Notes: generated from the sequence alone by a model not told the origin. A DNA stretch of 32,000 nt from Promethearchaeota archaeon (GCA_027031765.1 JALVPN010000040.1:121536-153535); one strand, 5' to 3'; positions 1,466 to 16,859 are shown, numbered from the stretch's first letter. Translations and numbers: made by a program.

Positions 1466-1829
1466 TTCAGTATACTCCCTTGTCGGTCACACGCAGGGTG
1501 AGTGGATTCCGACGTTGTCAGTTGAAAAAGGTTTTGACATGTGTTCCAACGGACTGTGCAGAACGGAGCCGGGTAACGAAGTTGATGATGGAAACGACCC
1601 CTACTGGCACTGCGGTACCGTGGTGCTGCCAACTTTGACGGGACACCGAATTCGGAGGGTAGTGTAGTACTGAGCTCAGTTTCGATACCCTCGACTAGGG
1701 GTACGAAGTGGAGTGTACAAAACGCCACAACCAACGAGCTCACTAGTGGCAGCGCAGGCCCTCAGCCAACTAGTCCCATGTGCAGGCACTTCATATGATT
1801 CAGGGACAACAATACTGAAACCACACCAC

Positions 1830-1835
1830 TTATAT
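1830..1835 (+). promoter_or_regulatory. Putative TATA box of the AAA+/RHH operon
   Basis: TTATAT about 50-60 bp upstream of the start (GTG 1884 or ATG 1893). Confidence 0.5.
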
Positions 1836-1845
1836 CCGGCCCGCT

Positions 1846-1870
1846 GTATTACACAAACTACTCGTGATAC
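1846..1870. repeat. Heptad pair GTATTAC (1846) / GTGATAC (1864), 18-bp offset
   Basis: Read directly; it lies between the TATA box and the start codon of the AAA+ gene. Confidence 0.65.
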
Positions 1871-1883
1871 GGCTAGGTAGGCT

Positions 1884-2867
1884 GTGCAGACAATGACTAT
1901 TGCAGTCCATGAAAGTGCACTAATACGACACTTCAACACTCGCAGAGAGACCTTACGTGCGTGGGAGGAACGCATTGGTGCCCGCTTCTCACCGTTTCGT
2001 GGGTTCAAGATGCCAGACAGTCGCTTGTACTGTGAACATCCAGATTTTCTGGACAGCATAGTGGACCTGATAATAACCAACGAACGGCACATATTCCTCC
2101 GGGGACCTGTCGGCTCTGGCAAAAGCACGCTGATGTTGCTGGCGCTGAGAGACTTGCCGACTTTGGCAGACCGCCGTGGTAACAAGTTCATTACAGGATA
2201 CGTAGGGATGACAGGGCTCTATGAGAAACAGATGGCGGCCGCAATAGCAGACTCGTTGCGTGTCAAGTACCGCCGGTCATGGGAATCGAGTCAAATCATT
2301 GAGGCTGTGGCGAGAGAGTGCGTCAGGCGGTACGTTGAGGAGCACTGTCGTACGGCGTTGTTCATAGAGGATGTGGCTGACAATCAGGAAGCTGCATTCC
2401 ACAAGCTCCGTTATCTAGCGGATCTCCCAACAGAGGAGATGAAAGAAGAATATGGGGGGGCCCTAGACGAGCCAGTAGTGACTTTGATTATGAGTGGCAC
2501 CATGATGTATTGGAATGCCATGTTGAGCTTCTTGCCGCAGATAGCCGATAGGACAGAACCCCTTGATGTGCCACCATTTGATGACGCGAAGGCAAAGGAG
2601 TTCATAGGACGACGACTGGCATACGCACGCGGTGAGATTGACAGCTTCGACCCTAATGACTTTGACATCTATCCCTTTGAGGAAGAGGCTATCGAGATAA
2701 TAAATGCTGCAGCTAGGGGGAACCCGCGGGACATAAGGATGCTCGCAAGAGGTTGCCAACAGGTGGCTGCTGAGCGGCTCAAGGAAACTGGGGACCCATC
2801 AATTACAGTTGAGATAGCAACACTCGTTGTCGATGCATATTCCGCACTTTTGAAGGAGGTGCAGTGA
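1884..2867 (+). CDS. ExeA/GspA-like AAA+ ATPase (short form, no peptidoglycan-binding or winged-helix tail); start may be ATG 1893
   Basis: FSPF...PD..Y leader, Walker A GPVGSGKS, Walker B variant ALFIEDV, sensor-1 strand LIMSGT, then PFDDAKAKEFIGRRL and FEEEAIEIINAAARGNPRDIRML. This is the ExeA (COG3267-like) layout. Confidence 0.8.
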   Translation: MQTMTIAVHESALIRHFNTRRETLRAWEERIGARFSPFRGFKMPDSRLYCEHPDFLDSIVDLIITNERHIFLRGPVGSGKSTLMLLALRDLPTLADRRGNKFITGYVGMTGLYEKQMAAAIADSLRVKYRRSWESSQIIEAVARECVRRYVEEHCRTALFIEDVADNQEAAFHKLRYLADLPTEEMKEEYGGALDEPVVTLIMSGTMMYWNAMLSFLPQIADRTEPLDVPPFDDAKAKEFIGRRLAYARGEIDSFDPNDFDIYPFEEEAIEIINAAARGNPRDIRMLARGCQQVAAERLKETGDPSITVEIATLVVDAYSALLKEVQ

Positions 2868-3178
2868 CTGTGAGCCTTCTGGGAAAGTACAGGCGTGAGG
2901 AGAAAGAGAGAGGCGAAGAGGAGCCGAAAAGAACACCTGCTGCCACTAGCAGTACACGCGTGGTAAGACGCCGGTCTACGGCCTCTTCAGTTCCCAACAA
3001 GGAGCGGAAAAGCCCGATAATGAGCTTCTCTGTGGCCTCTGACCTGCGTGCCTGTCTGCAGGCCGTCAGGATGGAGAAGGCAATCAATCTGAGCATGTGG
3101 GTTGAACGCACACTTAGGGAGGCTGTAATCAGAGAGTTCCCAGAGATTGCACAGGCTCATCTCCGTAGTGATGCATAG
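2864..3178 (+). CDS. Small protein with a flexible charged N-terminus and a C-terminal ribbon-helix-helix DNA-binding domain
   Basis: GTGA overlap with the ATPase stop. The C-terminus has a strand IMSFSV, helix ASDLRACLQAVRMEK, turn AIN and helix LSMWVERTLREAV, which is the RHH pattern. Confidence 0.7.
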   Translation: MTVSLLGKYRREEKERGEEEPKRTPAATSSTRVVRRRSTASSVPNKERKSPIMSFSVASDLRACLQAVRMEKAINLSMWVERTLREAVIREFPEIAQAHLRSDA

Positions 3179-3276
3179 TGCGACCCGCATATGTCAAGTC
3201 CACTTGTCCCCACCGGCCACTCAATACCCAAAGAAATCACGTCCTACGCCTAACGCTGGAAAACCCAGTCCTACTG

Positions 3277-3292
3277 GTATTAGGAGTAATAC
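3277..3292. repeat. Heptad pair GTATTAG (3277) / GTAATAC (3286), 9-bp offset (can also form a small hairpin)
   Basis: Read directly in the convergent intergenic gap after the RHH gene. Confidence 0.55.
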
Positions 3293-3394
3293 AGCCAGAC
3301 AGCCCTGGATTCCTCTCCATGGTAGCAATCTGGGTGGGTTCCCGGGATTGAAACAGTAGTCGAGGCAGACAAGGTAGTAGGTGACCGCAGAAAG

Positions 3395-4810
3395 TCACAT
3401 GGTGCGTCGTCCTTTCAGCTCCGAGTACTCAACAACCTTCGCGATGGCAAGGCACGCCGTATGAGGGTCATCATAGCAGGGGATACGGTTCATCTCAAGG
3501 AGATCCTTGCCTGGCTTTCCTACATCACCAGCAAGCCAAACACCCACCACGGGCTTGTCTGCACCCGCAAGCCGTGCCCCCTCCAGAGTACCGGCCGCAT
3601 GTTCTGTCTGTGTCATTCCTGCGAAGGTCGGCACGCCACATATTACCAATAGAGTATCGATATTTTCATCACTGAGTAGTAGCTCAGTAGCAACACGGTA
3701 CTCACGGCGTCCGCCGCTTGCCACCACGTCTACGGGGTTGCGAGTGGCGGCCATCGGGGAAAGAATCTGGCGGAGCTCACGGCGCGTTTCCTTGGACAGC
3801 TCAGGTACGTTCAATCCAAAGTACGATGCGGCGTCGGCCGCAAGAACACCTGCACCGCCGGTATTACTGATGATACCAATATTACGGCCACACGGCGAAG
3901 GTTGGTAGTCAAAGAGTTTGCACACCTCAAGCAGTGAGTCGAGGGTAGGAATCATGACGGCCCCGGCTTGGCGAACCATACCTTCGAATATTTTTGCTGA
4001 GCCGGCCAGTGAGCCTGTGTGTGACTGTGTGGCACGACCGCCGGCCTTACTGAGCCCGCCCTTTAGCACTACCACGGGCTTTGCCATTGCGGCCTGTCTG
4101 AGAGACTCGAAGAAAGGACGGCCTTTGTCTACGCCTTCCACATAGATTGCTATGACGTGGGTCCTATCATCTTCTGTGAAATACCTAAGCACCTCTGAGA
4201 AACTGACATCAGCCGCGTTCCCCAAACTCGCAAACTTGCTGACCCCAATCCTCTTCGCACGTGTATTGTATATGGTCATTCCACCAAGAGCACCACTCTG
4301 TGAGAGAAGGGCTATGTTCCCACGTTCTGGCATCATAGTGAAAGTCCCGTTGAAGAGACGGCTGTTCGAAACTCCGACACAGTTGGGGCCTATGATGCGC
4401 ACACCTGCTTCCCGAGCTGCATGCACGAGCTGGTTTTCCAGCTGCTTCCCTTCGGGGCCGGTTTCGCTGAAGCCACCAGAAATTACAACAGCATGGCGTG
4501 CTCCGGCGGCCCGAACCTCGTACATGAGTGCAGGACAGTACTTCGCCGCTACTGCAATGATTACTAGGTCGACTGGCACCGGTAGTTGGCGGAGGCTGGG
4601 GTATGCACGTACGCCCAACACACGCTCGCGACTCCGCGTTACAGGGAACACCTCAACCTCGGACGCAAGGAGATTCATGAGAATCGAGTTGCCTAGCTTC
4701 CGATAGTCGGCTGACGCCCCAACTAGAGCGACTCTGCGTGGATTGAAGAAAGGATCCAAATCATTGTAGGCGTCATATTCGCCGTATGACATAGGCAAGG
4801 GCGACAACAC
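3395..4810 (-). CDS. acdA: Acetate/acyl-CoA ligase (ADP-forming), alpha subunit; exact start uncertain (4810-4792)
   Basis: FFNPRRVALVGAS CoA-binding fold, RIIGPNCVG, SQSGALG, SLGNAADV, phospho-His loop HTGSLAG, NTGGAGVLAAD and NPVDV. Confidence 0.9.
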   Translation of the reverse strand: MLSPLPMSYGEYDAYNDLDPFFNPRRVALVGASADYRKLGNSILMNLLASEVEVFPVTRSRERVLGVRAYPSLRQLPVPVDLVIIAVAAKYCPALMYEVRAAGARHAVVISGGFSETGPEGKQLENQLVHAAREAGVRIIGPNCVGVSNSRLFNGTFTMMPERGNIALLSQSGALGGMTIYNTRAKRIGVSKFASLGNAADVSFSEVLRYFTEDDRTHVIAIYVEGVDKGRPFFESLRQAAMAKPVVVLKGGLSKAGGRATQSHTGSLAGSAKIFEGMVRQAGAVMIPTLDSLLEVCKLFDYQPSPCGRNIGIISNTGGAGVLAADAASYFGLNVPELSKETRRELRQILSPMAATRNPVDVVASGGRREYRVATELLLSDENIDTLLVICGVPTFAGMTQTEHAAGTLEGARLAGADKPVVGVWLAGDVGKPGKDLLEMNRIPCYDDPHTACLAIAKVVEYSELKGRRTM

Positions 4811-4948
4811 ACCTGATTTATGTGTAACTAGTGAAATTCAGTACGGAAGTACTTGTAGACCATTTCGGGGGTTGGGTACAAAAGTGTCATGGGATGTCTG
4901 CAACGTACGCACGGTGTCCGGCCTAAGAGGGGAGGGCAGCGCCGCTCT

Positions 4949-4991
4949 GTAATAGTGCTGTATAGTGTATGGGTCGTATTGCGTGTATTAC
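4949..4991. repeat. Heptad array in 9-bp register: GTAATAG 4949, GTATGGG 4967, GTATTGC 4976, GTATTAC 4985
   Basis: Read directly; offsets are 18, 9 and 9 bp. Confidence 0.6.
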
Positions 4992-5389
4992 GACCATGGA
5001 TGAGCTTTGGACGCGAGCGAGAAACAACTGACATTCAACATTAGAGCAAAGTAGAACGCCAATGTAACTCCACATCTGCTAGAAGCGGTGCAGATTGAGC
5101 CAGACAGATGGCCTATTCGATACCCCGCAGACTTGTCATGAGGACAATCATGTGTGTTGCAGCTTCAAGGGCTAGTGGACTCAGGCGGCAGTTTGCGGCA
5201 CAGAAGCTGCAGAGATATTTCAATGCAAATCGTGCAGCAAGGGGGCAAGAGTACCCACTACGTGTTATCTCAACGGATCTGCGTACGTCAAGTATTCCAA
5301 GCCACCCAGCAACAACAAGGCAGTCAGTGCCGAGTCACGCAGCACACTCATGTGTAGCGGAACTGTAGAATACACTCTGCACCCAAGCG

Positions 5390-5423
5390 GTATTGTTCAT
5401 ATAACAGGTAATACGCGTGATAC
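5390..5423. repeat. Heptad array: GTATTGT 5390, (ATATAAC 5399), GTAATAC 5408, GTGATAC 5417
   Basis: Read directly; 9-bp register. Confidence 0.6.
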
Positions 5424-5746
5424 GTCACGTAGATGCTCCTCTTTGGCGAAACGTCCACGCTCGCCAATTGAAATGGAGCAGGAAGTGGTAGCTGGCAGCA
5501 GACAGAACACCAAACTCTGTAGCAAGAAACCCGGGCCACCGGGGTTCTACGAGGCACTGGAACCGTATAACACTACAACCGAGGCCGTACGTCAATCCGA
5601 CATCACAACGTGGATCACTATCACTACAAGGAACCACAAGTAGCCGACATGCCGGTCACCTTTGGACACACGACATAGGGCGGTAACTACGCAGTACGTG
5701 GGGCTCCATCCATAGGCGAAACCCGCGTGCAAGCCGCCTGCATTCG

Positions 5747-5779
5747 TTAATACTCGTAATACTAGTGATACAGCAATAC
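5747..5779. repeat. Heptad array: TTAATAC 5747, GTAATAC 5756, GTGATAC 5765, GCAATAC 5773
   Basis: Read directly; offsets are 9, 9 and 8 bp. Confidence 0.65.
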
Positions 5780-6063
5780 GGCCAATCCACATCTACAGCA
5801 TGGTGAACCAGGAAGATTCAGCACCCGCTGCTGTTCTAAGATTAGAACTATGTATTCCTGTTGTCAAGAATATAGTGAGTGTGTCGTACCAGACAGAAGC
5901 ATATAGACCACGAGCAATCCAGTCCAACTGCACCGTCCAGCATCTCTATCTCCTCGGAACAGACCTCCAGATTTGGGTACGGTGTCAGAAGGACACTCAG
6001 GTCTGCAAGAGGTACGACACACTCGAGCCCGGTCTACACTCACTACAGGCCAGGCAGTTCTAG

Positions 6064-6615
6064 CTAGTCCAGACGTAGCGCAAGCGGAGACTGCAACAAG
6101 TCCAGTGCGTCAAGAACCACGCGTTCAGCAGCCCTGTACGCTTCAACGTCCTCTGGGGAGAGAGAGTGCCTTGCTGCGAGTGCTTCGCGGATGCTGCGGT
6201 ATGCACCAACCCTAGTCGCTACCTCCTCGAAGGGCCTGAAAATACTGAGCTCAAAGAGGCCCAGATACGCCAGGACGAGCAGGGTATAGATGGAACGCAT
6301 GACATTTCGCCGCGCTTGCTTCAGAGTTCTGTTGAAGGCGCCGCGCGAAACCCCCTTTCCACCGCGCGGCCCTCTACCCCTAAGTGACGCCTTCTGTTCG
6401 TATGAAACGCGGCCCTCTGATGCATCATCTGTGAGGAGATCAATCAACAGTGTTTCGAGCTGCGTGCTGGTCAGACTGGAGCGTTCAAGAAGAATGCGCA
6501 AGATTGGCTCCCGTAGCACAAGGCGCACTTGTGATACCATCTCCGTCAACGACCCGTCATCTTTTCTTTCTTCGTTCAACAGCTCACGCTCCGCCACTGA
6601 TGAAACGGCGCTCAT
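6064..6615 (-). CDS. Conserved archaeal hypothetical protein with an HTH-like core; start moved from 6786 to ATG 6615
   Basis: LLERSSLTSTQLETLLID...KASLR...GVSRGAFNRTLKQARRNVMRSIYTLLVLAYLG resembles an uncharacterised family I recall from TACK/Asgard archaea. The first 57 codons of the track ORF look non-coding. Confidence 0.8.
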   Translation of the reverse strand: MSAVSSVAERELLNEERKDDGSLTEMVSQVRLVLREPILRILLERSSLTSTQLETLLIDLLTDDASEGRVSYEQKASLRGRGPRGGKGVSRGAFNRTLKQARRNVMRSIYTLLVLAYLGLFELSIFRPFEEVATRVGAYRSIREALAARHSLSPEDVEAYRAAERVVLDALDLLQSPLALRLD

Positions 6616-6734
6616 ATTGGCCAATTCACGCGAATCGTCGCTATAAGGCCGTCTGCAAATCCATGTCCACCGGGGGTCCGGGTGGATACAATTCTGTATA
6701 CGGCAGAGCTTAAAGCCATATCTGTGTATGAGGC

Positions 6735-6750
6735 GTGATAGGCGTATTAC
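6735..6750. repeat. Heptad pair GTGATAG (6735) / GTATTAC (6744), 9-bp offset
   Basis: Read directly, between the 6615 start and the 6762 stop. Confidence 0.55.
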
Positions 6751-6761
6751 ACTCGATTCAA

Positions 6762-7265
6762 TTATGGCCGTGTTGGCACCCACCAAGACTCCTCAGGAGG
6801 AACAAATGTAAATGCAAGGACGAGATTGCCACGAACCTGGTCAAACTCATAGACTGCAAACGTTATTGACTCATCATCCCGATGCCACGAAACATATCTG
6901 AGCGCAACTTGACGTCTGAAAAACGCCCGACAATAGCGACGTACCGCGATGAACAGATTGCGATACCGGCGGCGCTGCGACGGGCGGATCCCCCAACGTT
7001 CGAGGATGAACCGGTTCGCGAGGGAGTTGCTAGATATGAGGATTGGATGCATCACCCTCGTTGACCGACCAGCAACAGCAGACTCAAGCATGCGTCTAAG
7101 GCAAGCAGGAATCCCGGCAAGCACAGATGGGGTCGCGGCTAGGTCTACTGCACCAGTCCCTCCAGAATTGACGGATGTCATCACCATCAGAAGGATAGTT
7201 TGGTCATCCGCAATAAAAACACCCCAAAATTCGCCGCCGCCACAACTCTCTGCATGACAATGCAC
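6762..7265 (-). CDS. Hypothetical basic protein (true start probably downstream, near M27-M29)
   Basis: Protein-like, Arg-rich core MHPILISSNSLANRFILERWGIRPSQRRRYRNLF followed by beta-rich FAVYEFDQVRGNLVLAFTFV; co-oriented with the 6064 gene. Confidence 0.65.
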   Translation of the reverse strand: MHCHAESCGGGEFWGVFIADDQTILLMVMTSVNSGGTGAVDLAATPSVLAGIPACLRRMLESAVAGRSTRVMHPILISSNSLANRFILERWGIRPSQRRRYRNLFIAVRRYCRAFFRRQVALRYVSWHRDDESITFAVYEFDQVRGNLVLAFTFVPPEESWWVPTRP

Positions 7266-7364
7266 GACTTATCCAACGCATCAATGATGTCATGAATCGT
7301 CATGCAATCAGAGAGGAACCGACAGAGCACCACTGGTACATGCGACACGGGAATGTGACAAGTT

Positions 7365-7398
7365 GTATTGGTACTCATGTGAGTAATACGACCAATAC
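7365..7398. repeat. Heptad array: GTATTGG 7365, GTAATAC 7383, CCAATAC 7392
   Basis: Read directly; offsets are 18 and 9 bp, in the divergent gap before hypF. Confidence 0.6.
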
Positions 7399-7484
7399 GA
7401 ATATTATCAGTGGAATATAGTGCACGATTTGCCACTTCATCGTATTAATATCGGCACAAGAAATAGAGCGGCTAGGGACTCCCT

Positions 7485-9833
7485 GTGAAACAACAGGCGA
7501 CAATTCACATCAGAGGAATCGTCCAGGGTGTGGGGTTCAGGCCCTTCGTGTATCGTGTAGCCACGCAAAACAGACTCAAGGGTTACGTGCTGAACCTCGG
7601 CGATGCAGGTGTTAGAGTTGTCCTTGAAGGCGAGCGGAACAACATAGAGGCCACAATCAGACAGATCAAGAATCACCCACCGTCAATCGCAAGAATCGAC
7701 GACATGGAAATTCGCTGGTCTTACGCCACAGGACAGTTTCCCGATTTCAGAATTGCCAAGTCCAGCAGCACAGCTACTGCAGATGTGACCCGGATTCCGC
7801 CTGACATCGCAACATGTGAGGACTGCGTCCGCGACATCTTCGACCCAAACTCTCGGTGGTATCAGTATCCATTTACGTCCTGCGCTGCTTGCGGGCCAAG
7901 ATACTCCACCATTACGGATTTGCCATACGACAGACCAAACACCACCATGGCTGACTTCCCATTGTGTAATACATGTCATAGCAGTTATACAGACCCTGGG
8001 AATAGACGGTACCATGCTCAGACAACGGCATGCCCCATATGTGGCCCGCGCTACGTACTGCTGGACAAGGAAGGTAACACAGTTGCCACCGAGAGGCCAC
8101 TCCTTGCCGCGGCCCACCTGCTTGCAGATGATAGAGTGCTCGCTTTACATGGAACCTCCGGAACCCACCTTGTCACTATAACTAGCACTCCAGAACCGAT
8201 TTACCACTTGCGTGAACGAAAGAGGCGGCCCCAGAGACCCTTGGCCGTCATGGCCCGTGGCATGAGCGCAGTCGCTGCCTTCGCCACTCCTACAACGAGA
8301 GAAGCAGAGGAGATGCAGTCATGGCGTAGGCCAATCGTCCTAGTCAGCCGCCGGAGTGTGCCAATGTCCGGGTCTACGGTCACAGCTGAGTCGCTTGACG
8401 CCATAGCGCCCGGCCTCGATACAATTGGCGTGATGCTGCCCTACTCTCCAGCGCACCATATCCTCTTCAACACCCTAAATGAGGACGCCCTAGTGATGAC
8501 AAGCGCAAACCCCACGGGCCTGCCAATGTATATCGATTCCTCTGACATCGTGAAACACCTGCATGAGATAGCAGACTACTTTCTTGTCCACAACCGCAGA
8601 ATACATCAGCGGTGTGACGACTCAGTACTCAAATACATCGCCGGCAGACGCGTCTTCATCCGTCGCTCGAGGGGATACGTGCCCGAGCCGATCCATACAG
8701 ACTGGCGACCCAAAGGTACCACAGTCGCAGCCCTCGGCCCTGAAGAAAAGGTCACAGGGACAATCGCCAAGGCTGGTGTGTTTTACCCAACACAACACAT
8801 AGGTGATACAGACAGCATCGAAAGCATCGAGTTCCTCACTCACGCAATGAACCACCTGAAGCATCTGTTGAGAATTGAACGGTTCGATGCCATTGCGTGT
8901 GACCTGCACCCACAGTTCCTCACTACCGAGACCGCCGAAATCATTGCTCAGGAAACGAACACCTCCCTCACACGAGTGCAACACCACCATGCGCACCTCG
9001 CGAGCCTCATAGTAGATAGCAACCTTTCTAGTAATACCCGTATCGTGTGTATTACCGCTGATGGATATGGCTATGGCCCCAACGGGGAAGCTTGGGGCGG
9101 TGAGGTACTCGTGGGCGGTCTCAAAGATGTCACTTGGTACGGAGGTCTCATGCCCAGCAGGTTGTCAGGAGGCGACCTCGCCGCAAGATATGCCACTAGG
9201 AGCCTCATCGGGATTGCCACACCCATTTCCAGTGAAGAGCAGCTCCTGACAATTGCAGGAGGAAACAAGATCTCAGAACGAAAACGCCTGACTGAATCAA
9301 CTCTTCAACTACTAGTACATTCAGCTGAAAGAGGTGTGAACGCAGTTACCACCTCGAGTGCAGGGCGATTTCTCGATGCCGTGTCTGTAGCTCTGGGCAT
9401 ATGCTCAGAAAACACATACGACGGCGAATGTCCAATGAAACTCGAATCAGTGGCCAGAGACAACGGGACAAGGATCAGACCGCACTACATTGACCGACGA
9501 GGTAGCCCCCTCATAGACACTGGTGCCGCACTTCAGCAAGTCCTGGAACTGATACAACAGCGGGTGCCACGGGCAGGAATAGCTTTCGCTGCACAGTGGT
9601 TCCTTGGTGAGGCACTTGCCCAGATTGCGTGTATGGCCTCCCAGGAGCAGTCAATACCTCAGGTTGGGTTTTCCGGAGGAGTGGCACTCAACAGGAATAT
9701 CACACGAGCCGTGGAGAGAGTCGTTAGCGACCATGGAGTGCAACTCCTGCGCCACTGGCGAGTCCCACCTGGAGATGGCGGAGTTTCCGTTGGGCAGAGT
9801 GCAGTCACCATGGCCCAGCTAGCACTTGAGTGA
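7485..9833 (+). CDS. hypF: Carbamoyltransferase HypF ([NiFe]-hydrogenase maturation)
   Basis: Acylphosphatase GIVQGVGFRPFVYR, four CxxC zinc-finger pairs, RRYHAQ, LVMTSAN, RRSRGYVP, DLHP, QHHHAH, DGYGYG, TSSAGRFLDA and PPGDGGVSVGQ. Confidence 0.97.
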   Translation: MKQQATIHIRGIVQGVGFRPFVYRVATQNRLKGYVLNLGDAGVRVVLEGERNNIEATIRQIKNHPPSIARIDDMEIRWSYATGQFPDFRIAKSSSTATADVTRIPPDIATCEDCVRDIFDPNSRWYQYPFTSCAACGPRYSTITDLPYDRPNTTMADFPLCNTCHSSYTDPGNRRYHAQTTACPICGPRYVLLDKEGNTVATERPLLAAAHLLADDRVLALHGTSGTHLVTITSTPEPIYHLRERKRRPQRPLAVMARGMSAVAAFATPTTREAEEMQSWRRPIVLVSRRSVPMSGSTVTAESLDAIAPGLDTIGVMLPYSPAHHILFNTLNEDALVMTSANPTGLPMYIDSSDIVKHLHEIADYFLVHNRRIHQRCDDSVLKYIAGRRVFIRRSRGYVPEPIHTDWRPKGTTVAALGPEEKVTGTIAKAGVFYPTQHIGDTDSIESIEFLTHAMNHLKHLLRIERFDAIACDLHPQFLTTETAEIIAQETNTSLTRVQHHHAHLASLIVDSNLSSNTRIVCITADGYGYGPNGEAWGGEVLVGGLKDVTWYGGLMPSRLSGGDLAARYATRSLIGIATPISSEEQLLTIAGGNKISERKRLTESTLQLLVHSAERGVNAVTTSSAGRFLDAVSVALGICSENTYDGECPMKLESVARDNGTRIRPHYIDRRGSPLIDTGAALQQVLELIQQRVPRAGIAFAAQWFLGEALAQIACMASQEQSIPQVGFSGGVALNRNITRAVERVVSDHGVQLLRHWRVPPGDGGVSVGQSAVTMAQLALE

Positions 9834-9865
9834 CACGACTCAGCCAGAACGCCACACGGCAGACA

Positions 9866-10477
9866 TCACGAACCACCCGATACCGCTGCCACTCCCAAAT
9901 CGAGCGCGGCTGAGTTTATAGCCTCATAGCGACCTCCAAAGGCACTCCGCACTACAGCCCTAGCAGTTCCAACACCAAAAGGAAGCAGACCTAGGCCTAG
10001 AACGGCACCAAACATTACCATGTTGACTGCACGAGGACTGCCAGCCTTCTGGGCAAGGGTCATTGCATCGACCTTCGTGACCTCAACTCCAAACGGCGAC
10101 ATCAGACGGTCAATCTCGGCCTCGGACGGGTACCTATCATGACCCATCGAGACCGCAACTGGATACTGGACATGCGTGTTCATCACCACATGGCCACCGG
10201 GACGTACAAGGGAAATCTCGCGTAGTGTTTCTAGCGGTTCAAAACCGATGATGACGTCACCAGTGCCAATATCAACAATAGGCCCCAAGGCGCCATCCCC
10301 AATGCGGACGAATGATACAACATGTCCGCCCCGCTGAGCCATTCCATGGATCTCACCAACACGGACATTGTTTGACTCGTTCAGAGCAGCCTGCGCCATT
10401 ATCTGGGCCAGCGTCAATACACCCTGACCGCCCACACCGGTCACAACAATATTACGTGTAATACCAGTCCTAGCCAT
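9866..10477 (-). CDS. iorB: Indolepyruvate:ferredoxin oxidoreductase beta subunit
   Basis: GVGGQGVLT, EIHGMAQRGGHVVSFVRIG, FEPLE and NMVMFGA; abuts iorA (TGA-ATG). Confidence 0.95.
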   Translation of the reverse strand: MARTGITRNIVVTGVGGQGVLTLAQIMAQAALNESNNVRVGEIHGMAQRGGHVVSFVRIGDGALGPIVDIGTGDVIIGFEPLETLREISLVRPGGHVVMNTHVQYPVAVSMGHDRYPSEAEIDRLMSPFGVEVTKVDAMTLAQKAGSPRAVNMVMFGAVLGLGLLPFGVGTARAVVRSAFGGRYEAINSAALDLGVAAVSGGS

Positions 10478-12370
10478 TCACACACCTCCCTGTTTGATTG
10501 CCCCCTGAGGACAGACATGTACACAGCTACCGCAGTAGTTGCAAAGGGCTGGATCAATGGCAGCCTGACCCGTTTCCTGATTCAGATACATGGCAGGGCA
10601 GGAGAACCGGTTCAGACAACGCCGACATCCATTGCAGAGGTCCACATCAACGTAGTACGGCTCTGGAAACACACCCGTACTCCGCCGTTCAGCCGCAGTG
10701 AGCAGAGCGCATGGTGCACGCGAGACCAAGACACCTGGGGCACGGTTGTCCCTTACCCACTGCACTAGCTGACGCACCTCAGCGACTACTTCAGATAGTG
10801 GCTGAAACGGGTCTACAGTCCTAACATACTCCACGCCGAGACCCCTACACACATCCTCGATTCTTAGGGGCGGTACAGACTCCTGCATCCCAGTGAGTCC
10901 AGTTCCCGGATGTGGCTGGTGGCCGGTCATAGCAGTTGTACGATTGTCGAGGACAACCAGACAGATTGGATGGCGGTTGTACACAGCATTGGCGAGACCC
11001 GGCAGTCCTGATGCGAAGAAGGTGCTGTCCCCAATCGTCGCTACGACATCCTGGCCGGTCACGCGCGCAATGCCGCACGCAGTTGTTATTGAAGAACCCA
11101 TGTCAAAGAGGATGTCCGCTGTTTCAAGCGGAGGTGCAATGCTGAGAGTATAGCACCCAATATCCGACGGATATATCGCCTTCCCACGAGTCGCAGCACG
11201 GATTGCATAGTACGTAGCACGGTGCGGGCAGCCAGGACATAGCAGAGGAGGACGCGGTGGCAAGTCACGCACCGAACGGGCCCTCTCCTCAGCCGCATCC
11301 CAGTCAATCGGCGACTCGACACCAAGCACACCGGTCATGGCCCGCATCACAATACGAGTGTTGAACTCAAACGTCCGGGGGAGCACCCCCTGTTCCTTTC
11401 CAACAATACGGACATCAATACTATGAAGCTGTGCCAGACGGCGCAGGTGGGTTTCAAGGACAGGTTCGAGCTCTTCAACTACGAGAACAGTCGGATGTGC
11501 TTCTAGAAACCGTGCAATCATATCTTCAGGAACAGGATGAGTCATCCCGAGTTTCAATACAGCTGCACTGATACTTAGGGCCTCAATGGCCTCCCGCACA
11601 TAGTTGTAGGAAACCCCACTGGTCACAACACCAAACTCCCCCTCACCAGTGACAAAGTTCAGAGGAGTCGCTTCAGAAACCTCGCGTGCACGCTCGATTT
11701 GCCTCAACAGTGCAGGATGCTGCTTCCGTGCTACAGCAGGGATTGGGACGAAACGCAAGGGCTCCTTCTTAAACACTACATGTTCAGGAGGGCGTGCAAT
11801 TGGACCAAGGGGCACAGGAGCCCGGGTATGGTTCACACGAGTGGTGGTTCTCAGCAACACCGGCAGCTCAAGCTCCTCTGAAAGATCATACGCAGCAAGA
11901 ACCATAGCCTTGGCCTCTGCGGGATCAGCAGGCTCCAGCATGGGCATGTTGGCCATCAGTGCATAGTACCGGCTGTCATTTTCGTTCTGACTGCTCCACA
12001 TGCTGGGGTCGTCCGCAACTACAATGACCATGCCCCCACGCACCCCAACATATGCAAGTGAGAGGAACGGATCAGCAGCAACATTCAGGCCAGGGCCCTT
12101 ACATACCATCATTGACCGGACTCCTGCAACAGCGGCCGCACCGGCAACCTCAATCGCAACCTTTTCGTTGGCACTGAACTCAAAGTAGAAGTTCTCCATG
12201 TGCGGAGCCATCTGCGTGAGACTGTTTCCAATCTCGCTGCTCGGCGTCCCCGGGTACAATGCAACAAGCCGTACGCCCGCTTCGAGAACTGCACGCGCAA
12301 TGGCCTCATTTGCCAACAACAACAGCGTTTCCCCCACTGCGTCCTGCAACAGTTCCTTTGCTTTCACCAA
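10478..12370 (-). CDS. iorA: Indolepyruvate:ferredoxin oxidoreductase alpha subunit
   Basis: YPGTPSSEI, NEKVAIEVA, GLNVAADP, RPPLLCPGCPHR, SDIGCY, TPP motif GDSTF...DNRTTAMTG and a C-terminal 2x[4Fe-4S] ferredoxin. Confidence 0.97.
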   Translation of the reverse strand: MVKAKELLQDAVGETLLLLANEAIARAVLEAGVRLVALYPGTPSSEIGNSLTQMAPHMENFYFEFSANEKVAIEVAGAAAVAGVRSMMVCKGPGLNVAADPFLSLAYVGVRGGMVIVVADDPSMWSSQNENDSRYYALMANMPMLEPADPAEAKAMVLAAYDLSEELELPVLLRTTTRVNHTRAPVPLGPIARPPEHVVFKKEPLRFVPIPAVARKQHPALLRQIERAREVSEATPLNFVTGEGEFGVVTSGVSYNYVREAIEALSISAAVLKLGMTHPVPEDMIARFLEAHPTVLVVEELEPVLETHLRRLAQLHSIDVRIVGKEQGVLPRTFEFNTRIVMRAMTGVLGVESPIDWDAAEERARSVRDLPPRPPLLCPGCPHRATYYAIRAATRGKAIYPSDIGCYTLSIAPPLETADILFDMGSSITTACGIARVTGQDVVATIGDSTFFASGLPGLANAVYNRHPICLVVLDNRTTAMTGHQPHPGTGLTGMQESVPPLRIEDVCRGLGVEYVRTVDPFQPLSEVVAEVRQLVQWVRDNRAPGVLVSRAPCALLTAAERRSTGVFPEPYYVDVDLCNGCRRCLNRFSCPAMYLNQETGQAAIDPALCNYCGSCVHVCPQGAIKQGGV

Positions 12371-12446
12371 CCTGCCGACCTCGCGCCTTCGTCACAATGC
12401 CTCCCCAACAACTCGCACTATCAGTTTTATGGTGTCGGCCCACAGT

Positions 12447-12462
12447 TAGAACACGTGTTCTA
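12447..12462. repeat. Perfect 16-bp palindrome TAGAACACGTGTTCTA
   Basis: Self-complementary; its core GAACACGTGTTC recurs at 12681-12692. Confidence 0.85.
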
Positions 12463-12472
12463 TTCGTAAAGA

Positions 12473-12493
12473 CCCCTCTGTTTCGTGTGGAAC
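12473..12493 (-). other. Origin recognition box (ORB): GTTCCACACGAAACAGAGGGG on the minus strand
   Basis: Matches the archaeal ORB pattern GTTCCA...GAAAC plus G-string; 18/21 identical to the element at 12610. Confidence 0.85.
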
Positions 12494-12500
12494 TGGCAAG

Positions 12501-12590
12501 ACACAAAATATACCAATTAACCAAACATATTTATATCAGTTTTCAGTACGTGCCTTAAGCTCTTTCTAAATATATAACAACAAGTACATA
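12501..12590. other. AT-rich tract, candidate DNA-unwinding element (DUE)
   Basis: 66 of 90 bases are A/T by hand count (73%) against a roughly 45% AT background; lies between the inverted ORBs. Confidence 0.7.
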
Positions 12591-12609
12591 CAGGTCCAGC
12601 TCTTCAAGA

Positions 12610-12630
12610 GTTCCACTCGAAACAATGGGG
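12610..12630 (+). other. Origin recognition box (ORB): GTTCCACTCGAAACAATGGGG
   Basis: ORB core plus G-string, inverted relative to 12473-12493. Confidence 0.85.
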
Positions 12631-12631
12631 T

Positions 12632-12655
12632 GTATCACGGTACGGGTTGTATTAC
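12632..12655. repeat. Heptad pair GTATCAC (12632) / GTATTAC (12649)
   Basis: Read directly, immediately after the right ORB; the 17-bp offset is slightly off the 9-bp register. Confidence 0.45.
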
Positions 12656-12680
12656 TCGTGCTACAACGTTACGCTCTATG

Positions 12681-12692
12681 GAACACGTGTTC
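12681..12692. repeat. 12-bp palindrome GAACACGTGTTC (second copy)
   Basis: Identical to 12449-12460; overlaps the stop codon of the 12691 gene. Confidence 0.8.
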
Positions 12693-12996
12693 ATACAGCC
12701 ACGGGCAACTCGCGTTCGATGCTAAAGGCCCTCACTTTGAGGATATCACGGTAGTTGGCAAAGAGCTGGTCAAACTGATCCTTCATATGGACTGGTACCA
12801 TTATGGCTGAGTCGGTGACTACCTCGCATAGCGGTGACGAGTCGACTAGTCCCGGCTTTCGTCGCGTTTTGAGGCCGCCCCGTGTCTTCCATGTATATGT
12901 GTAGCCATAGAGCTCCTTTGTGAATGCAATCCTCCTGGCATTCCGTTGGCGTGAATTGATACAATCGTAGACATAGAGCACAGTTTCCATTGTCAA
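12691..12996 (-). CDS. Small hypothetical protein, possibly Cas2/VapD-like ferredoxin fold; start TTG 12996 or ATG 12990
   Basis: About 100 aa with a first strand VLYVYD ending in Asp, a helix, a basic insert WKTRGGLKTRRKPGL, and DSAIMVP..........F. Confidence 0.7.
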   Translation of the reverse strand: MTMETVLYVYDCINSRQRNARRIAFTKELYGYTYTWKTRGGLKTRRKPGLVDSSPLCEVVTDSAIMVPVHMKDQFDQLFANYRDILKVRAFSIERELPVAV

Positions 12997-13240
12997 CCGG
13001 TGCTCTTTCGCTCCCGGGCAGATTTGAAAATGCGTACTACAGGGGTTGTGCCAGCCTACAACGGTGGCATGCTACACGAGAGAATCCGCTTCCAGTATCC
13101 TACAAGTGTCATCCAATCCAGTACTCTTTTTTGCTTGTATGGATGGGGAAGACTTAAAGCCCCCATGTTGTGCGACTCGCAGTGCGCCGTTGTCGTGCAC
13201 AGACTATTGGCCACCTTGTAATCTCGACCTGGTGAGATGC

Positions 13241-14554
13241 ATGAATACGATTGGGCTACGGAGGGAAGACAAGCCCTTCGAGAGGCGAGTGCCACTGGTA
13301 CCGGAGCACGTCAGCGAGCTGATTGTTGCCCATGGCATTTCTTTTGTAGTTGAGCCCTCCCCGGATCGCGCTTTCACCAACAAGGAGTTCGAGTCGGCCG
13401 GAGCGAGGCTCGGTGACATCCGCAGCCCGGATGTCCGGGTAGTCCTTGGAATCAAGGAGATGCCTTCTGACCTCTTTGAGGCCGGAAATGTTTACGTCTT
13501 CTTCAGTCACACAATCAAGGGCCAAGAGCACAACATGCCGATGCTCCGTGCACTACTGAGTGCAGGTGCGACCTTGATAGACTATGAGTGTATCGTTGAT
13601 GATAGTGGTAGGCGCCTCATCTTCTTCGGCAACTGGGCGGGTATGGCTGGAATGGCTGACACACTTAGGGTCTTTGGGGCCCGACTGGCATACGAACGCA
13701 TATCGCCAAACCCTTTCCTTGATCTTCCACCAACGTACGAATGTGCCTCTCTCGACCATCTCCGTGGAGAGATTGCAAAGGTTGCCGAACGCATCGAGTC
13801 GCACGGACTGCCGGCATCCCTGAAACCTGTTGTTGTTGGCTTTGCAGGGTATGGAAATGTTTCTCGCGGGGCGCAAGAGTTGTTCGACATACTGCCCCAC
13901 GAAACCGTAGCACCAGAGGAGCTCGACGAGGTTGAGTCGACTGCTGATGTATTGTACAAGTGTGTCTTCAAGGAGGAGCACATGGTTGAACCGGCTGACC
14001 CGTCAATAGAGTTCGACCTCCAGGACTACTATAGACATGGGTCTTCAAAGTATCGTGGAGTCTTCGAGCGGTACATCCCATACTTAACGGTTCTAATGAA
14101 CTGTATCTTCTGGGCTGACAAGTATCCCCGTCTTGTAACAAAACGGTTCATTCGGGAACACTGGGTGAGCCCATCTAGGCGGCTCAAGGTTGTTGGTGAC
14201 ATTTCGTGTGACCTTGAAGGTGCCATCGAGTTCACTGTCATGACGACAAATCCTGAGAGCCCCGCCTTCACATACCTCGTGGATGAAGACCGCGCTGTGA
14301 GCGGAGTGGAGGGCAATGGGCCAGTAGTAATGGCAATCGACAACCTGCCAACGGAACTGCCGCGCGAGTCGTCGCGCTCCTTTAGCGAAACGCTACGTTC
14401 GTTCGTGCCACACATTGCCAAAGCCGACTTCGATGCTGACTTTGGTACACTAGACCTGCCCCCAGAGCTTATGCGGGCTGTAATAGTCTACCGTGGTCAG
14501 CTTACCCCCGACTATGAATACCTACACAAGTACCTAGAAGGAGTTGAACGCTGA
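13241..14554 (+). CDS. Lysine-ketoglutarate reductase-like / saccharopine dehydrogenase (AlaDh/PNT family, homologous to the LKR half of AASS); start moved to ATG 13241
   Basis: IGLRREDKPFERRVPLVPEHV, FFSHTIKGQEHNMPML, LIDYE, FFGNWAGMAG, GYGNVSRGAQE, DISCDLEGAIEF and MAIDNLPTELPRESS; GGTGA RBS at 13231. Confidence 0.9.
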   Translation: MNTIGLRREDKPFERRVPLVPEHVSELIVAHGISFVVEPSPDRAFTNKEFESAGARLGDIRSPDVRVVLGIKEMPSDLFEAGNVYVFFSHTIKGQEHNMPMLRALLSAGATLIDYECIVDDSGRRLIFFGNWAGMAGMADTLRVFGARLAYERISPNPFLDLPPTYECASLDHLRGEIAKVAERIESHGLPASLKPVVVGFAGYGNVSRGAQELFDILPHETVAPEELDEVESTADVLYKCVFKEEHMVEPADPSIEFDLQDYYRHGSSKYRGVFERYIPYLTVLMNCIFWADKYPRLVTKRFIREHWVSPSRRLKVVGDISCDLEGAIEFTVMTTNPESPAFTYLVDEDRAVSGVEGNGPVVMAIDNLPTELPRESSRSFSETLRSFVPHIAKADFDADFGTLDLPPELMRAVIVYRGQLTPDYEYLHKYLEGVER

Positions 14555-16766: not shown

Positions 16767-16859
16767 CTTTTATTGATTCACAACATTAATTGCACACCCA
16801 TAAATTAAGTGTGAGTGTGTGAACAACCAGTATCTGCGTATGTGGCGTGTATTACGTGG

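What the first reader, a model, noticed from the sequence alone, without database searches (positions are those of the whole stretch)
1846..7398. Dispersed arrays of a GTA(T/A)TAC quasi-palindromic heptad in 9-bp register
Seen: exact GTATTAC/GTAATAC at intergenic positions 1846, 3286, 4985, 5408, 5756, 6744, 7383, 12649, 16849 and 24169. That is 10 by hand count in roughly 5.5 kb of non-coding DNA, where about 0.7 would be expected under a uniform model. The seven between 1.8 and 7.4 kb all have degenerate partners at exact 9- or 18-bp offsets. At least 6 isolated copies also occur in coding DNA, so there is some background enrichment. Known: the RHH protein omega binds arrays of direct and inverted heptads (WATCACW), and the variant GTATCAC/GTGATAC here is similar. 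Inference: cooperative binding sites (centromere-like, or a local regulon) for the RHH, or for the HTH proteins at 6064 or 16134.
Basis: partly seen in the sequence, partly recalled or inferred. Interest (0 to 1): 0.75.

Follow-up and report, generated by a model that had tools for sequence, protein, structure and literature searches.

The report
Origin-flanking heptad arrays in Thorarchaeota
Beside the probable replication origin of an Asgard (Thorarchaeota) chromosome lie about a dozen short arrays of the palindromic 7-base word GTAWTAC repeated every 9 bases; they occur nowhere else in the genome, have been kept across the whole family even inside protein-coding genes, and are most likely docking sites for a small ribbon-helix-helix protein that is encoded next to an ORC-like ATPase, which makes this a candidate centromere-like or origin-organising region.

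Summary
The window holds 16 exact GTAWTAC where 1.4 are expected. Outside this locus, the 2.95-Mb genome carries the word only at chance frequency.

Only the copies at this locus have partners at 9 and 18 bp. Nine of the 14 best three-unit arrays in the genome lie in 8.6 kb (window 1846-10464). Controls at spacings 7, 8, 10, 11 and 12 find none there.

The organism is a Thorarchaeote. In 38 related loci the arrays sit at syntenic places: median 14 per locus, 541 arrays in 9-bp register against 30-105 in other registers. About half lie inside genes (ACS, HypF, IOR-beta). There, synonymous sites are frozen (T-ending codons 93-99% vs 62-67% background) and HypF residues appear to have been changed to spell the motif.

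The domain runs from an operon encoding an ORC/Cdc6-like AAA+ ATPase and a putative RHH protein to an ORB-DUE-ORB origin at 12.5 kb.

Best reading: cooperative RHH binding sites that build an origin-flanking nucleoprotein domain. The binder is not shown. A serious rival is the aCcr1/CdrS-type cell-cycle RHH family, whose known box (GTATTA) is the same word.

First-stage readers of this scan noted the same locus in overlapping windows.

The parts
1829..1870 (+). Promoter of the AAA+/RHH operon. A TATA-like TTATAT (1829-1834) is followed by the array GTATTAC-ac-AAACTAC-tc-GTGATAC (1846-1870), which covers the expected transcription start.
   Evidence: The same TATA-to-array layout (consensus GTATTAC-aag-aAGTAC-tt-GTGATAC) is present in nearly all of the 39 related loci.
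1884..2867 (+). AAA+ ATPase (327 aa) with an ORC/Cdc6-like fold and no winged-helix domain. It is 76-86% identical in most database relatives, nearly all labelled Thorarchaeota.
   Evidence: Pfam gives only weak AAA_22 and ORC-CDC6-like matches. The AF2 model has mean pLDDT 68. The top Foldseek hits are archaeal Orc1/Cdc6 and eukaryotic ORC/Cdc6, at E 7e-10 to 1e-7 and TM about 0.5. PF09079 does not hit this gene. Orthologues.
2864..3178 (+). Putative ribbon-helix-helix protein (104 aa), translationally coupled to the ATPase gene (GTGA overlap). It has a conserved N-terminal SLLGKYRKE, a variable charged linker and a C-terminal strand-helix-helix.
   Evidence: Alignment A1. In the AF2 model, helices 59-72 and 76-91 follow an extended stretch, with pLDDT 82-89. 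VIA-align gives Z 3.5-3.6 to SegB and omega. There is no Pfam or PDB sequence match.
3268..3292 (.). Three-unit array, GTCCTAC-tg-GTATTAG-ga-GTAATAC, between the convergent 3' ends of the RHH and ACS genes.
   Evidence: A syntenic array sits at about +1.3 kb in relatives.
3861..3885 (.). Three-unit array inside the ACS (ADP-forming acetyl-CoA synthetase) gene. It encodes RNIGIISNT on the minus strand.
   Evidence: The codons are nearly invariant in 69 relatives (GGT ATT ATT AGT AAT ACA).
4949..4991 (.). Array of up to 5 degenerate units ending in GTATTGC-gt-GTATTAC, 175 bp upstream of the ACS start.
5390..5423 (.). Four-unit array, GTATTGT / ATATAAC / GTAATAC / GTGATAC, in the gene-free stretch.
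5747..5780 (.). Array TTAATAC / GTAATAC / GTGATAC / (G)CAATAC. This is the best three-unit score in the genome (20 of 21).
   Evidence: It aligns with arrays in relatives.
6726..6750 (.). Three-unit array, GTATGAG / GTGATAG / GTATTAC, upstream of the HTH gene. By homology the real start of that gene is near 6594.
6064..6594 (-). Conserved putative HTH DNA-binding protein (about 176 aa; labelled UPF0251 by one source). It sits next to the AAA+ gene in other Asgard families.
6762..7133 (-). Conserved small protein of unknown function, orthologous to the 137-aa ORF of L090.
7365..7407 (.). Array GTATTGG / (gap unit) / GTAATAC / CCAATAC / ATATTAT, in the divergent promoter region upstream of HypF.
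7966..7990 (.). Three-unit array inside HypF, spelling the zinc-finger residues CNTCHSSYT.
   Evidence: Relatives read CDTCNTGYT (TGT GAT ACT TGT AAT ACA GGT TAT ACA). The outgroup and three relatives that lack this array read C..C..[EG]Y with mostly non-motif codons (TGC, TAC).
9031..9055 (.). Three-unit array inside HypF (residues SNTRIVCIT), with two exact heptads 18 bp apart.
10440..10464 (.). Three-unit array at the 5' end of the IOR-beta gene (minus strand).
12480..12623 (.). Probable oriC core. Inverted ORB boxes with G-strings (12480-12492 on the minus strand, 12611-12623 on the plus strand) flank an AT-rich stretch. A third ORB lies at 17047-17059.
   Evidence: The same pair sits about 10.8 kb from the AAA+ gene in relatives. 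The GC and AT skews change sign at C40:125-135 kb.
12632..12672 (.). Heptads GTATCAC ... GTATTAC-tc-GTGCTAC-aa-CGTTAC, directly abutting the right-hand ORB.
16829..16855 (.). Exact GTATTAC preceded by poorly phased GTAT units, 83 bp upstream of the 210-aa gene (16134-16766, minus strand) and 200 bp from the third ORB.

Best explanation
This is a family-conserved, origin-flanking domain of about 12-14 arrays. Each array has 2-4 copies of the palindromic unit (tT)GTAWTAC(Aa) in strict 9-bp register.

Proposed mechanism:
1. Each unit binds one dimer of a ribbon-helix-helix protein, and neighbouring dimers bind cooperatively. The pitch is comparable to MetJ (8 bp) and omega (7 bp).
2. The most likely binder is the RHH protein encoded at the edge of the domain (2864-3178).
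3. Its conserved N-terminal peptide and flexible linker would recruit or regulate the translationally coupled ORC/Cdc6-like AAA+ ATPase (1884-2867).
4. Together they coat about 11-15 kb on one side of oriC with a nucleoprotein structure. This would act as a centromere-like or origin-organising region, and it would also repress the operon's own promoter.

Shown here: the arrays, their phasing, their uniqueness in the genome, their conservation, DNA-level selection inside genes, the adjacency to the origin, and the ATPase fold.

Inferred: which protein binds, the cooperativity, the RHH-ATPase contact, and the cellular role.
For: - Enrichment and 9-bp phasing are specific to this locus.
- In a complete relative chromosome (2.58 Mb), the four best array matches all lie in the syntenic 14 kb. 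The same holds in G009 and G019.
- In 38 related loci there are 541 arrays in register 9, against 30-105 in registers 7, 8, 10, 11 and 12. The median is 14 per locus, and 55% lie inside ORFs.
- Codons at orthologous intragenic arrays: T-ending two-fold codons 93-99% against 62-67% background; GGT 95% against 34%; CGT 86% against 19%. The HypF zinc-finger residues differ from the outgroup in the way needed to spell three heptads.
- The best-conserved array overlies the start site of the AAA+/RHH promoter, downstream of a TATA box.
- The RHH candidate has the build of centromere-binding RHH proteins: conserved N-terminal peptide, disordered linker, C-terminal strand-helix-helix. Its weak structural matches include SegB, omega and several other ribbon-helix-helix proteins.
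- The ATPase has an ORC/Cdc6-like AAA+ fold.
- ORB-DUE-ORB and a skew switch lie at the end of the domain.
- In three other Asgard families and in the order-level outgroup, the AAA+ homologue lies within about 1-7 kb of an ORB pair. It is followed by an RHH-like ORF and the HTH gene in one family, and lies beside the HTH gene in the others.
Against: - Nothing here shows binding by the 2864-3178 protein.
- Its RHH fold has no Pfam, PDB-sequence or profile-profile support, and the structural Z-scores are low (at most 4.4).
- The heptad equals the known box of aCcr1-type regulators (PMC9976892). It also forms a conserved promoter box of the CdrS/aCcr1-like RHH genes in these genomes.
- In another Asgard family (G030), the AAA+ promoter carries GTAWTAC words although the neighbouring RHH-like protein has different strand residues. 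That argues that some other, conserved protein reads this word.
- The order-level outgroup keeps the AAA+ and RHH genes but has no arrays.
- The partner ATPase is not a ParA-type protein, so a partition role has no precedent.
Confidence: 0.45

Rival explanations
1. The heptads are boxes of the aCcr1/CdrS-type cell-cycle RHH regulators, which are small 46-60-aa proteins encoded elsewhere in the genome. On this reading the origin-flanking arrays are a dense, cooperative set of operator or titration sites. They would tie expression of origin-proximal genes (the AAA+/RHH operon, the HTH gene, HypF, ACS, IOR), or the free level of the regulator, to the cell cycle or to origin copy number.
For: [quoted passage not shown]
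- The genome encodes at least two such RHH proteins that match Pfam RHH_1.
- In 21 of 28 loci from this family and other Asgard lineages, their genes have an exact GTAWTAC within about 190 bp upstream of the start codon. In most it reads GTATTAC-N7-CATAT.
- The word is also present in the AAA+ promoter of a distant Asgard family.
- Outside the locus, heptads are mildly enriched in intergenic DNA: 18 of 80 against 11% of the genome, p = 0.003.
Against: - Phased multi-unit arrays occur only at this locus.
- The boxes at the regulator genes are single, asymmetric and lack the tT...Aa flanks.
- About half of the arrays are intragenic and under strong DNA-level selection, which a promoter regulon does not need.
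- Genome-wide, the word occurs at chance frequency.
- The outgroup keeps the regulator and its box but has no arrays.
Confidence: 0.3
2. The arrays are bound by one of the locus-encoded non-RHH proteins, acting as a local repressor or an origin-accessory factor. The candidates are the HTH protein at 6064-6594, the 137-aa-type protein at 6762-7133, and the 210-aa protein at 16134-16766.
For: - The HTH protein is conserved next to the AAA+ gene across Asgard families at 41-46% identity, and one source labels it a predicted DNA-binding protein.
- Its own upstream region carries an array (6726-6750).
- Homologues of the 210-aa protein sit next to orc1/cdc6 and the ORB pair in G030.
Against: - A 7-bp palindrome on a 9-bp pitch leaves little room for an HTH or winged-helix dimer on each unit.
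- These proteins are phylum-wide, while the arrays are family-specific.
- No domain assignment reaches a curated threshold.
Confidence: 0.08
3. GTAWTAC is the target of a DNA methyltransferase or restriction-modification system, and the clustering is incidental.
For: The word is a short palindrome of the kind such enzymes recognise.
Against: - Outside the locus the word occurs at Markov expectation, neither avoided nor enriched.
- A methylase target does not explain a fixed 9-bp register, degenerate partner units, restriction to one 15-25-kb locus, or conservation at syntenic positions across at least 15 genera with 38-52% GC.
Confidence: 0.02
4. The arrays are chance, or a by-product of conserved peptide motifs and codon usage.
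For: All intragenic arrays use the same frame (xGT AWT ACx). Some lie in conserved peptide motifs, for example GIISNTGG in ACS.
Against: - Spacing controls and shuffles argue against chance.
- Synonymous sites are frozen far beyond local codon usage.
- The outgroup and array-less relatives keep the protein motif frame but use other residues and codons.
- About half of the arrays are intergenic.
Confidence: 0.01

Closest known systems
Omega (pSM19035) and ParG (TP228) type RHH centromere and operator arrays (type Ib partition)
   Same: Short repeated units are each bound by an RHH dimer, in direct or inverted order. The arrays lie in the operon's own promoter. The small protein has a flexible N-terminal tail followed by an RHH domain, and it is encoded directly after its NTPase. 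The variant unit GTGATAC resembles the omega heptad WATCACW.
   Different: The pitch is 9 bp rather than 7 or 8, and the consensus is GTAWTAC. There are about 14 separate arrays spread over 11-15 kb of chromosome, half of them inside genes, rather than one compact site. The partner is an ORC/Cdc6-like AAA+ ATPase, not a Walker-type ParA. Binding has not been demonstrated.
aCcr1-box / ccr-2 box of Sulfolobales (aCcr1, aCcr2, aCcr3) and the CdrS motif of haloarchaea
   Same: The core word is the same (AGTATTA; a 9-bp palindrome ending in TAC), and it is read by small RHH proteins. [quoted passage not shown] Homologous small RHH genes here carry the same word in their promoters.
   Different: The known boxes are single or double and spread over many promoters. 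Here, phased 2-4-unit arrays are confined to one origin-flanking locus and embedded in coding DNA. The locus-encoded RHH candidate shows no detectable sequence relationship to the CdrS-like proteins.
Bacterial chromosomal ParB-parS clusters around oriC
   Same: Several copies of a palindromic site cluster within kilobases of the origin. Many lie inside genes, and the binding-protein operon lies in the same region.
   Different: The site is a different kind (tandem heptads rather than a 16-bp parS) and so is the protein family (no ParB CTPase and no ParA). The host is archaeal, and the arrays lie mainly on one side of the origin.
SegAB of Sulfolobales
   Same: It is an archaeal chromosome segregation pair in which SegB carries a ribbon-helix-helix-like DNA-binding domain and works with an NTPase encoded upstream. 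SegB is among the best, though weak, structural matches of the RHH model.
   Different: SegA is a ParA-type ATPase, the SegB sites are different sequences, and no sequence homology is detected.
MetJ met-box arrays
   Same: Tandem palindromic boxes at a fixed short pitch (8 bp), with one RHH dimer per box and cooperative contacts between neighbours.
   Different: MetJ is a metabolic repressor acting at promoters only. The sequence and the pitch are different.
Archaeal Orc1/Cdc6 with ORB origins
   Same: The ATPase has the initiator-clade AAA+ fold, and its gene is linked to an ORB-DUE-ORB origin across Asgard lineages.
   Different: It lacks the C-terminal winged-helix domain that reads ORB boxes. 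Bona fide Orc1/Cdc6 genes lie elsewhere (C190 and C40:160.8 kb). The heptads are unrelated to ORB.

Membership tests
Type Ib / omega-like RHH partition or operator system | The DNA-binding protein has a ribbon-helix-helix fold | tested here: inconclusive
   AF2 predicts an extended stretch followed by helices 59-72 and 76-91 at pLDDT 82-89. VIA-align gives Z 3.5-3.6 to SegB and omega, with several other ribbon-helix-helix proteins among the top 50. There is no Pfam, PDB-sequence or hhalign support, and Foldseek finds nothing.
Type Ib / omega-like RHH partition or operator system | Arrays of short repeats at a fixed pitch, including one in the operon's own promoter | tested here: met
   There are 2-4 units at a 9-bp pitch. 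The array at 1846-1870 overlies the promoter of the AAA+/RHH operon and is conserved in relatives.
Type Ib / omega-like RHH partition or operator system | The partner is a ParA-type (deviant Walker A) ATPase | tested here: not met
   The partner is an AAA+ protein whose best structural matches are Orc1/Cdc6 and ORC, with weak Pfam matches to AAA_22 and ORC-CDC6-like.
Type Ib / omega-like RHH partition or operator system | The protein binds the repeats and stimulates the ATPase | not testable with these tools
   This needs EMSA or footprinting and ATPase assays.
aCcr1/CdrS cell-cycle regulon box | Core word GTATTA within a 9-bp palindrome | tested here: met
   The unit is GTAWTAC with tT/Aa flanks. 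Published motifs.
aCcr1/CdrS cell-cycle regulon box | [quoted passage not shown] | tested here: not met
   The criterion is met at the AAA+ promoter. However, about half of the arrays are intragenic, phased arrays are limited to one locus, and the genome-wide count is at chance level.
aCcr1/CdrS cell-cycle regulon box | Bound by an aCcr1/CdrS homologue | not testable with these tools
   Homologues exist and carry the word in their own promoters. Binding to the arrays is untested.
Orc1/Cdc6 initiator (for the 1884-2867 protein) | Initiator-clade AAA+ domain and lid | tested here: met
   The top Foldseek hits are 1w5t, 2qby, 1fnn and 7jgr, at E 7e-10 to 1e-7 and TM 0.47-0.54. The model has mean pLDDT 68.
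Orc1/Cdc6 initiator (for the 1884-2867 protein) | C-terminal winged-helix domain (PF09079) | tested here: not met
   PF09079 matches three other places in the genome, two of them above the family cut-off (C190 and C40:160.8 kb) and one weak (C218), but not this gene. The protein ends after the lid, at 327 aa.
Archaeal oriC (ORB-DUE-ORB) | Inverted ORB boxes with G-strings flanking an AT-rich stretch | tested here: met
   Boxes at 12480 (minus strand) and 12611 (plus strand), plus 17047. Only four such boxes exist in the genome. The arrangement is conserved in relatives and in other Asgard families.
Archaeal oriC (ORB-DUE-ORB) | Adjacent orc1/cdc6 gene | tested here: not met
   The nearest Orc1/Cdc6 gene is about 26 kb away, at C40:160.8 kb. 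It is adjacent in G030.
Archaeal oriC (ORB-DUE-ORB) | Strand-composition switch at the site | tested here: met
   The cumulative GC skew peaks at C40:125 kb and the AT skew changes sign at 135 kb. Gene orientation may contribute to this.
Bacterial ParABS | ParB (HTH/CTPase) with a 16-bp parS | tested here: not met
   None of the larger ORFs scanned in the window gave a ParB or ParA match. The sites are tandem heptads.
Restriction-modification or methylase target | The word is avoided or evenly spread genome-wide, with no positional register | tested here: not met
   The word is at chance frequency outside the locus, and phased and clustered inside it.

The most novel reading that the evidence does not exclude
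Thorarchaeota, and in simpler form other Asgard archaea, have a chromosome-handling system of a new kind. It pairs an ORC/Cdc6-derived AAA+ ATPase that has lost its winged helix with a separate RHH adaptor. The adaptor nucleates on a centromere-like field of heptad arrays next to oriC. The system would carry out origin segregation, origin licensing or origin copy-number sensing. Selection on it is strong enough to have rewritten the codons, and even the residues, of neighbouring housekeeping genes.
Probability: 0.3. Interest if true: 0.9.

Novelty: new variant of a known kind. Interest (0 to 1): 0.8.

Why it matters
[quoted passage not shown] I found no description of this locus in the held literature.

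This locus offers a precisely defined and easily synthesised cis-element, a 25-bp three-heptad array. It also offers four small candidate proteins that can be tested in vitro without culturing the organism.

If the locus-encoded RHH and the ORC-like AAA+ ATPase act on the arrays, this would be a partition-like or origin-organising machine built from an initiator-family ATPase instead of ParA.

If the aCcr1/CdrS-type regulators bind instead, the archaeal cell-cycle box would extend from Sulfolobales and haloarchaea to Asgard archaea, and would be tied physically to the origin.

Either way, the intragenic arrays are a clean natural example of overlapping protein and DNA-binding codes. HypF zinc-finger residues and ACS codons are fixed by a DNA motif.

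Tried and rejected
- Complex prediction of the AAA+ ATPase with the RHH protein, using alignments A2 and A1: score 0.00, no verdict. This is not evidence either way.
- Sequence support for the RHH fold: Pfam on all 20 orthologues, a PDB profile search and NCBIfam gave nothing usable.
- Foldseek on the RHH model gave no match.
- Profile-profile comparison of the RHH family with the CdrS-like RHH family gave no relationship.
- De novo search for a different phased motif in the order-level outgroup (L099 = G025), by k-mer enrichment and self-similarity at offsets 5-15: no arrays were found. The 5 GTAWTAC copies there match chance at 33% GC. Only one genome of that lineage was available.
- A hoped-for natural experiment failed. 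G014, a family member without the AAA+ gene, also lacks HypF and the RHH gene. The region is probably just missing from the 91%-complete assembly, so the absence of arrays there is uninformative.
- Rfam and tRNA scans of the window, and a permissive Rfam scan of 4800-7500, gave no hits.
- RNAalifold on the conserved element at 5835-5958 found no covarying pairs.
- The 412-aa HEAT-like gene of relatives has no counterpart in the window.
- Literature searches for the heptads in archaea and for Asgard origins found no prior description.

Full report
**1. The observation**

A pattern search finds 16 exact GTAWTAC in the 32-kb window, against 1.36 expected from dinucleotide shuffles.

The window is part of contig C40 (121536-153535) of a 2.95-Mb, 229-contig assembly. 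The whole assembly holds only 96 copies, 26 of them on C40 and 16 in the window. Outside the locus the count (80) equals a third-order Markov expectation (80.9). So the word is neither favoured nor avoided elsewhere in the genome.

**2. The phasing**

- Around the 16 window copies, the average match to the heptad peaks at offsets +/-9 and +/-18 (z = 4-6).
- Around the 79 other genomic copies that could be scored, there is no peak at any multiple of 9.
- A motif-agnostic control scored three GTRWYAC units at a chosen spacing over the whole genome. Spacing 9 gives 14 hits of at least 18/21, nine of them at window 1846-10440. Spacings 7, 8, 10, 11 and 12 give 3-5 hits each, none at the locus.
- With two units, 10 of 30 genome-wide pairs lie in the 26-kb locus at spacing 9, and 0-2 at the other spacings from 6 to 12.

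The coding copies are not background: five of the six sit in three-unit arrays.

**3. The organism and conservation**

The genes are archaeal: A-type ATP synthase D, ADP-forming acetyl-CoA synthetase, HypF and indolepyruvate:ferredoxin oxidoreductase. The 327-aa ATPase at 1884-2867 retrieves 74 loci from species-representative genomes. Nearly all are labelled Thorarchaeota and are 78-86% identical.

- In those 1.24 Mb, three-unit hits number 459 at spacing 9 and 0-5 at the other spacings.
- With a seed-and-extend definition, 38 full loci hold a median of 14 arrays (range 9-22) of 2-4 units. There are 541 arrays in register 9, against 30-105 in other registers. 55% lie wholly inside ORFs.
- The arrays sit at syntenic places along a conserved gene order: AAA+, RHH, ACS, unknown genes, HypF, IOR-beta, IOR-alpha.
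- In a complete relative chromosome, the best matches are all in this one locus. In 141 kb around it, arrays are confined to 13.6 kb. Two further genomes behave the same way.
- The symmetrised unit is tT-GTAWTAC-Aa.

**4. Selection inside genes**

At the orthologous nine-codon stretches of ACS (RNIGIISNT), HypF site 1 (CDTCNTGYT) and HypF site 2 (.DTSIVCIT), the codons are almost invariant across genomes of 38-52% GC.

| Codon class | In arrays | Background in the same loci |
|---|---|---|
| T-ending two-fold codons | 93-99% | 62-67% |
| GGT | 95% | 34% |
| CGT | 86% | 19% |
| ATT | 88% | 46% |

(All figures.) The genomes are related, so these are descriptive figures rather than independent trials.

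The HypF case is the most telling. The order-level outgroup and three relatives that lack the array read C..C..[EG]Y, mostly with non-motif codons such as TGC and TAC. All array-bearing genomes read C-[DN]-T-C-N-T-G-Y-T, which spells three heptads. So the DNA motif has constrained, and apparently reshaped, the protein sequence. All intragenic arrays use the frame xGT AWT ACx.

**5. The surroundings**

*Probable origin.* Two inverted ORB boxes with G-strings (12480 on the minus strand, 12611 on the plus strand) flank an AT-rich stretch, and a third lies at 17047. Only four such boxes exist in the genome. The same inverted pair lies about 10.8 kb downstream of the AAA+ gene in relatives wherever the fetched locus reaches that far. 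The GC and AT skews of C40 change sign at 125-135 kb. The arrays thus fill the stretch from about 2-10 kb upstream of the AAA+ gene to the probable origin, mostly on one side of it. Orc1/Cdc6 genes lie elsewhere.

*The ATPase.* It has only weak Pfam matches. Its model (pLDDT 68) is closest to archaeal Orc1/Cdc6 and eukaryotic ORC/Cdc6. It lacks the winged-helix domain. It is restricted to Thorarchaeota at high identity.

*The RHH candidate.* The next gene overlaps the ATPase stop codon (GTGA). It encodes a 104-aa protein with an invariant N-terminal SLLGKYRKE, a variable charged linker and a C-terminal strand-helix-helix. Structural matches are weak but include SegB, omega and several other ribbon-helix-helix proteins. 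Sequence methods give nothing.

*The promoter.* The operon promoter has a TATA box followed by the best-conserved array, which overlies the expected start site.

*Other Asgard families.*
- In one other Asgard family (G030, read directly; its relative G040 matches by tblastn), the ATPase homologue (about 30% identical) is followed by an RHH-like ORF and by a homologue of the 6064 HTH protein.
- In two genomes of a further family (G026, G037), the ATPase homologue (22-24% identical) lies beside the HTH homologue.
- In all four, the ATPase gene lies within about 1-6 kb of an inverted ORB pair.
- In G030 the operon lies beside orc1/cdc6, and its promoter region carries three GTAWTAC.
- The module is therefore origin-linked across the phylum. 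The multi-array field was seen only in this Thorarchaeota family among the genomes sampled.

**6. Who binds?**

This is the open point.

- In favour of the locus-encoded RHH: its position, its build and the array in its own promoter.
- In favour of a rival: the heptad is also the experimentally defined box of the Sulfolobales cell-cycle RHH regulators aCcr1, aCcr2 and aCcr3 (AGTATTA, seed GTATTA). The genome encodes small CdrS/aCcr1-like RHH proteins, whose genes carry a conserved GTATTAC-N7-CATAT promoter element in 21 of 28 loci examined. Heptads outside the locus are mildly enriched in intergenic DNA.
- The two RHH families are not detectably related.
- Against the regulator reading: its boxes are single and asymmetric, phased arrays occur only here, and half of the arrays are intragenic under selection.
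- Against the local RHH reading: G030 uses the same word although its RHH-like protein has different strand residues, and the outgroup keeps the RHH but has no arrays.

I therefore commit to RHH-type cooperative binding that builds an origin-flanking nucleoprotein domain, with the locus-encoded RHH as the most likely binder. My estimates are about 0.45 for that reading, 0.3 for the aCcr1/CdrS-type proteins, and under 0.1 for the HTH or other local proteins.

**7. Known systems**

The closest working analogues are:
- omega and ParG type RHH arrays;
- MetJ box arrays;
- SegAB of Sulfolobales;
- bacterial parS clusters around oriC.

It is not a member of any of them. The ATPase is not ParA-type, the sites are not parS, and the pitch and word differ. 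I found no description of it in the held literature.

First-stage notes of this scan on overlapping windows record the same operon, the same origin-like module and the same heptads. I reached these readings before looking those notes up, and I tested them independently.

Noticed in passing
window 12446-12462 and 12680-12692: Palindromes of the form GAACACGTGTTC lie just outside each ORB box of the probable origin. The same palindrome recurs next to the ORB pairs of a distant Asgard genome (L144, about 10745 and 11430-11470) and at the end of L092. This may be a second origin-associated protein site.
   Followed up: partly
window 5835-5958: A non-coding element of about 125 bp in the middle of the array field has three blocks that are invariant across the family: GTTCTA(A/G)GATTAGAACTATGTAT (which contains a 16-bp palindrome), TGAGTGTGTCGT and ATCTCTATCTCC. 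It is inverted in some genomes. It has no Rfam match, no conserved ORF and no covarying pairs.
   Followed up: partly
window 4811-6063: This stretch is free of long ORFs here. Many relatives, for example L090, L032, L034 and L035, carry a 404-420-aa ORF at the same place (a weak HEAT-repeat match in L090). No trace of that ORF is detectable in the window by tblastn, so the gene seems to have been lost or replaced while the arrays stayed. L087 and L038 also lack a long ORF there.
   Followed up: partly
G000 C31:8331-8453 and C217:30404-30550; loci L112-L141: Two paralogous CdrS/aCcr1-like RHH proteins (46-60 aa, with an almost invariant YPNRSEAIRIAIRDLLKRELW) have a conserved promoter element GTATTAC-N7-CATAT, often followed by GTATGAC. 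It is present in Thorarchaeota and in some other Asgard lineages.
   Followed up: partly
L144 (G030:C1:931000-950999) 8333-14133: In another Asgard family the arrangement is compact: an operon of AAA+ (351 aa), an RHH-like protein (153 aa) and the HTH protein (169 aa), then 0.9 kb to an inverted ORB pair, then a winged-helix-like 174-aa gene and orc1/cdc6. HypF lies on the other side.
   Followed up: partly
window 24169 and 23683: A single unphased GTATTAC lies 32 bp upstream of the start (24137, minus strand) of a 560-aa secretion/pilus-type ATPase (T2SSE family), and a second copy lies inside that gene. It could be a single regulatory box or chance.
   Followed up: no
G000 contigs: The longest contigs (C40, C110, C144, C165, C217) have 55-57% GC, while most shorter contigs have 59-62%. 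C40 falls from 57% to 52% GC towards the origin region. This could be a compositional gradient or an assembly bias; it was not examined further.
   Followed up: no
L099 / L142 (G025:C13): In the order-level outgroup the same genes (IOR, ACS, HTH, HypF, AAA+, RHH, ATP synthase D) are linked to an ORB pair, but the ACS-HypF-IOR block is inverted relative to the AAA+ gene. The linkage of these unrelated genes to the origin therefore predates the arrays.
   Followed up: partly
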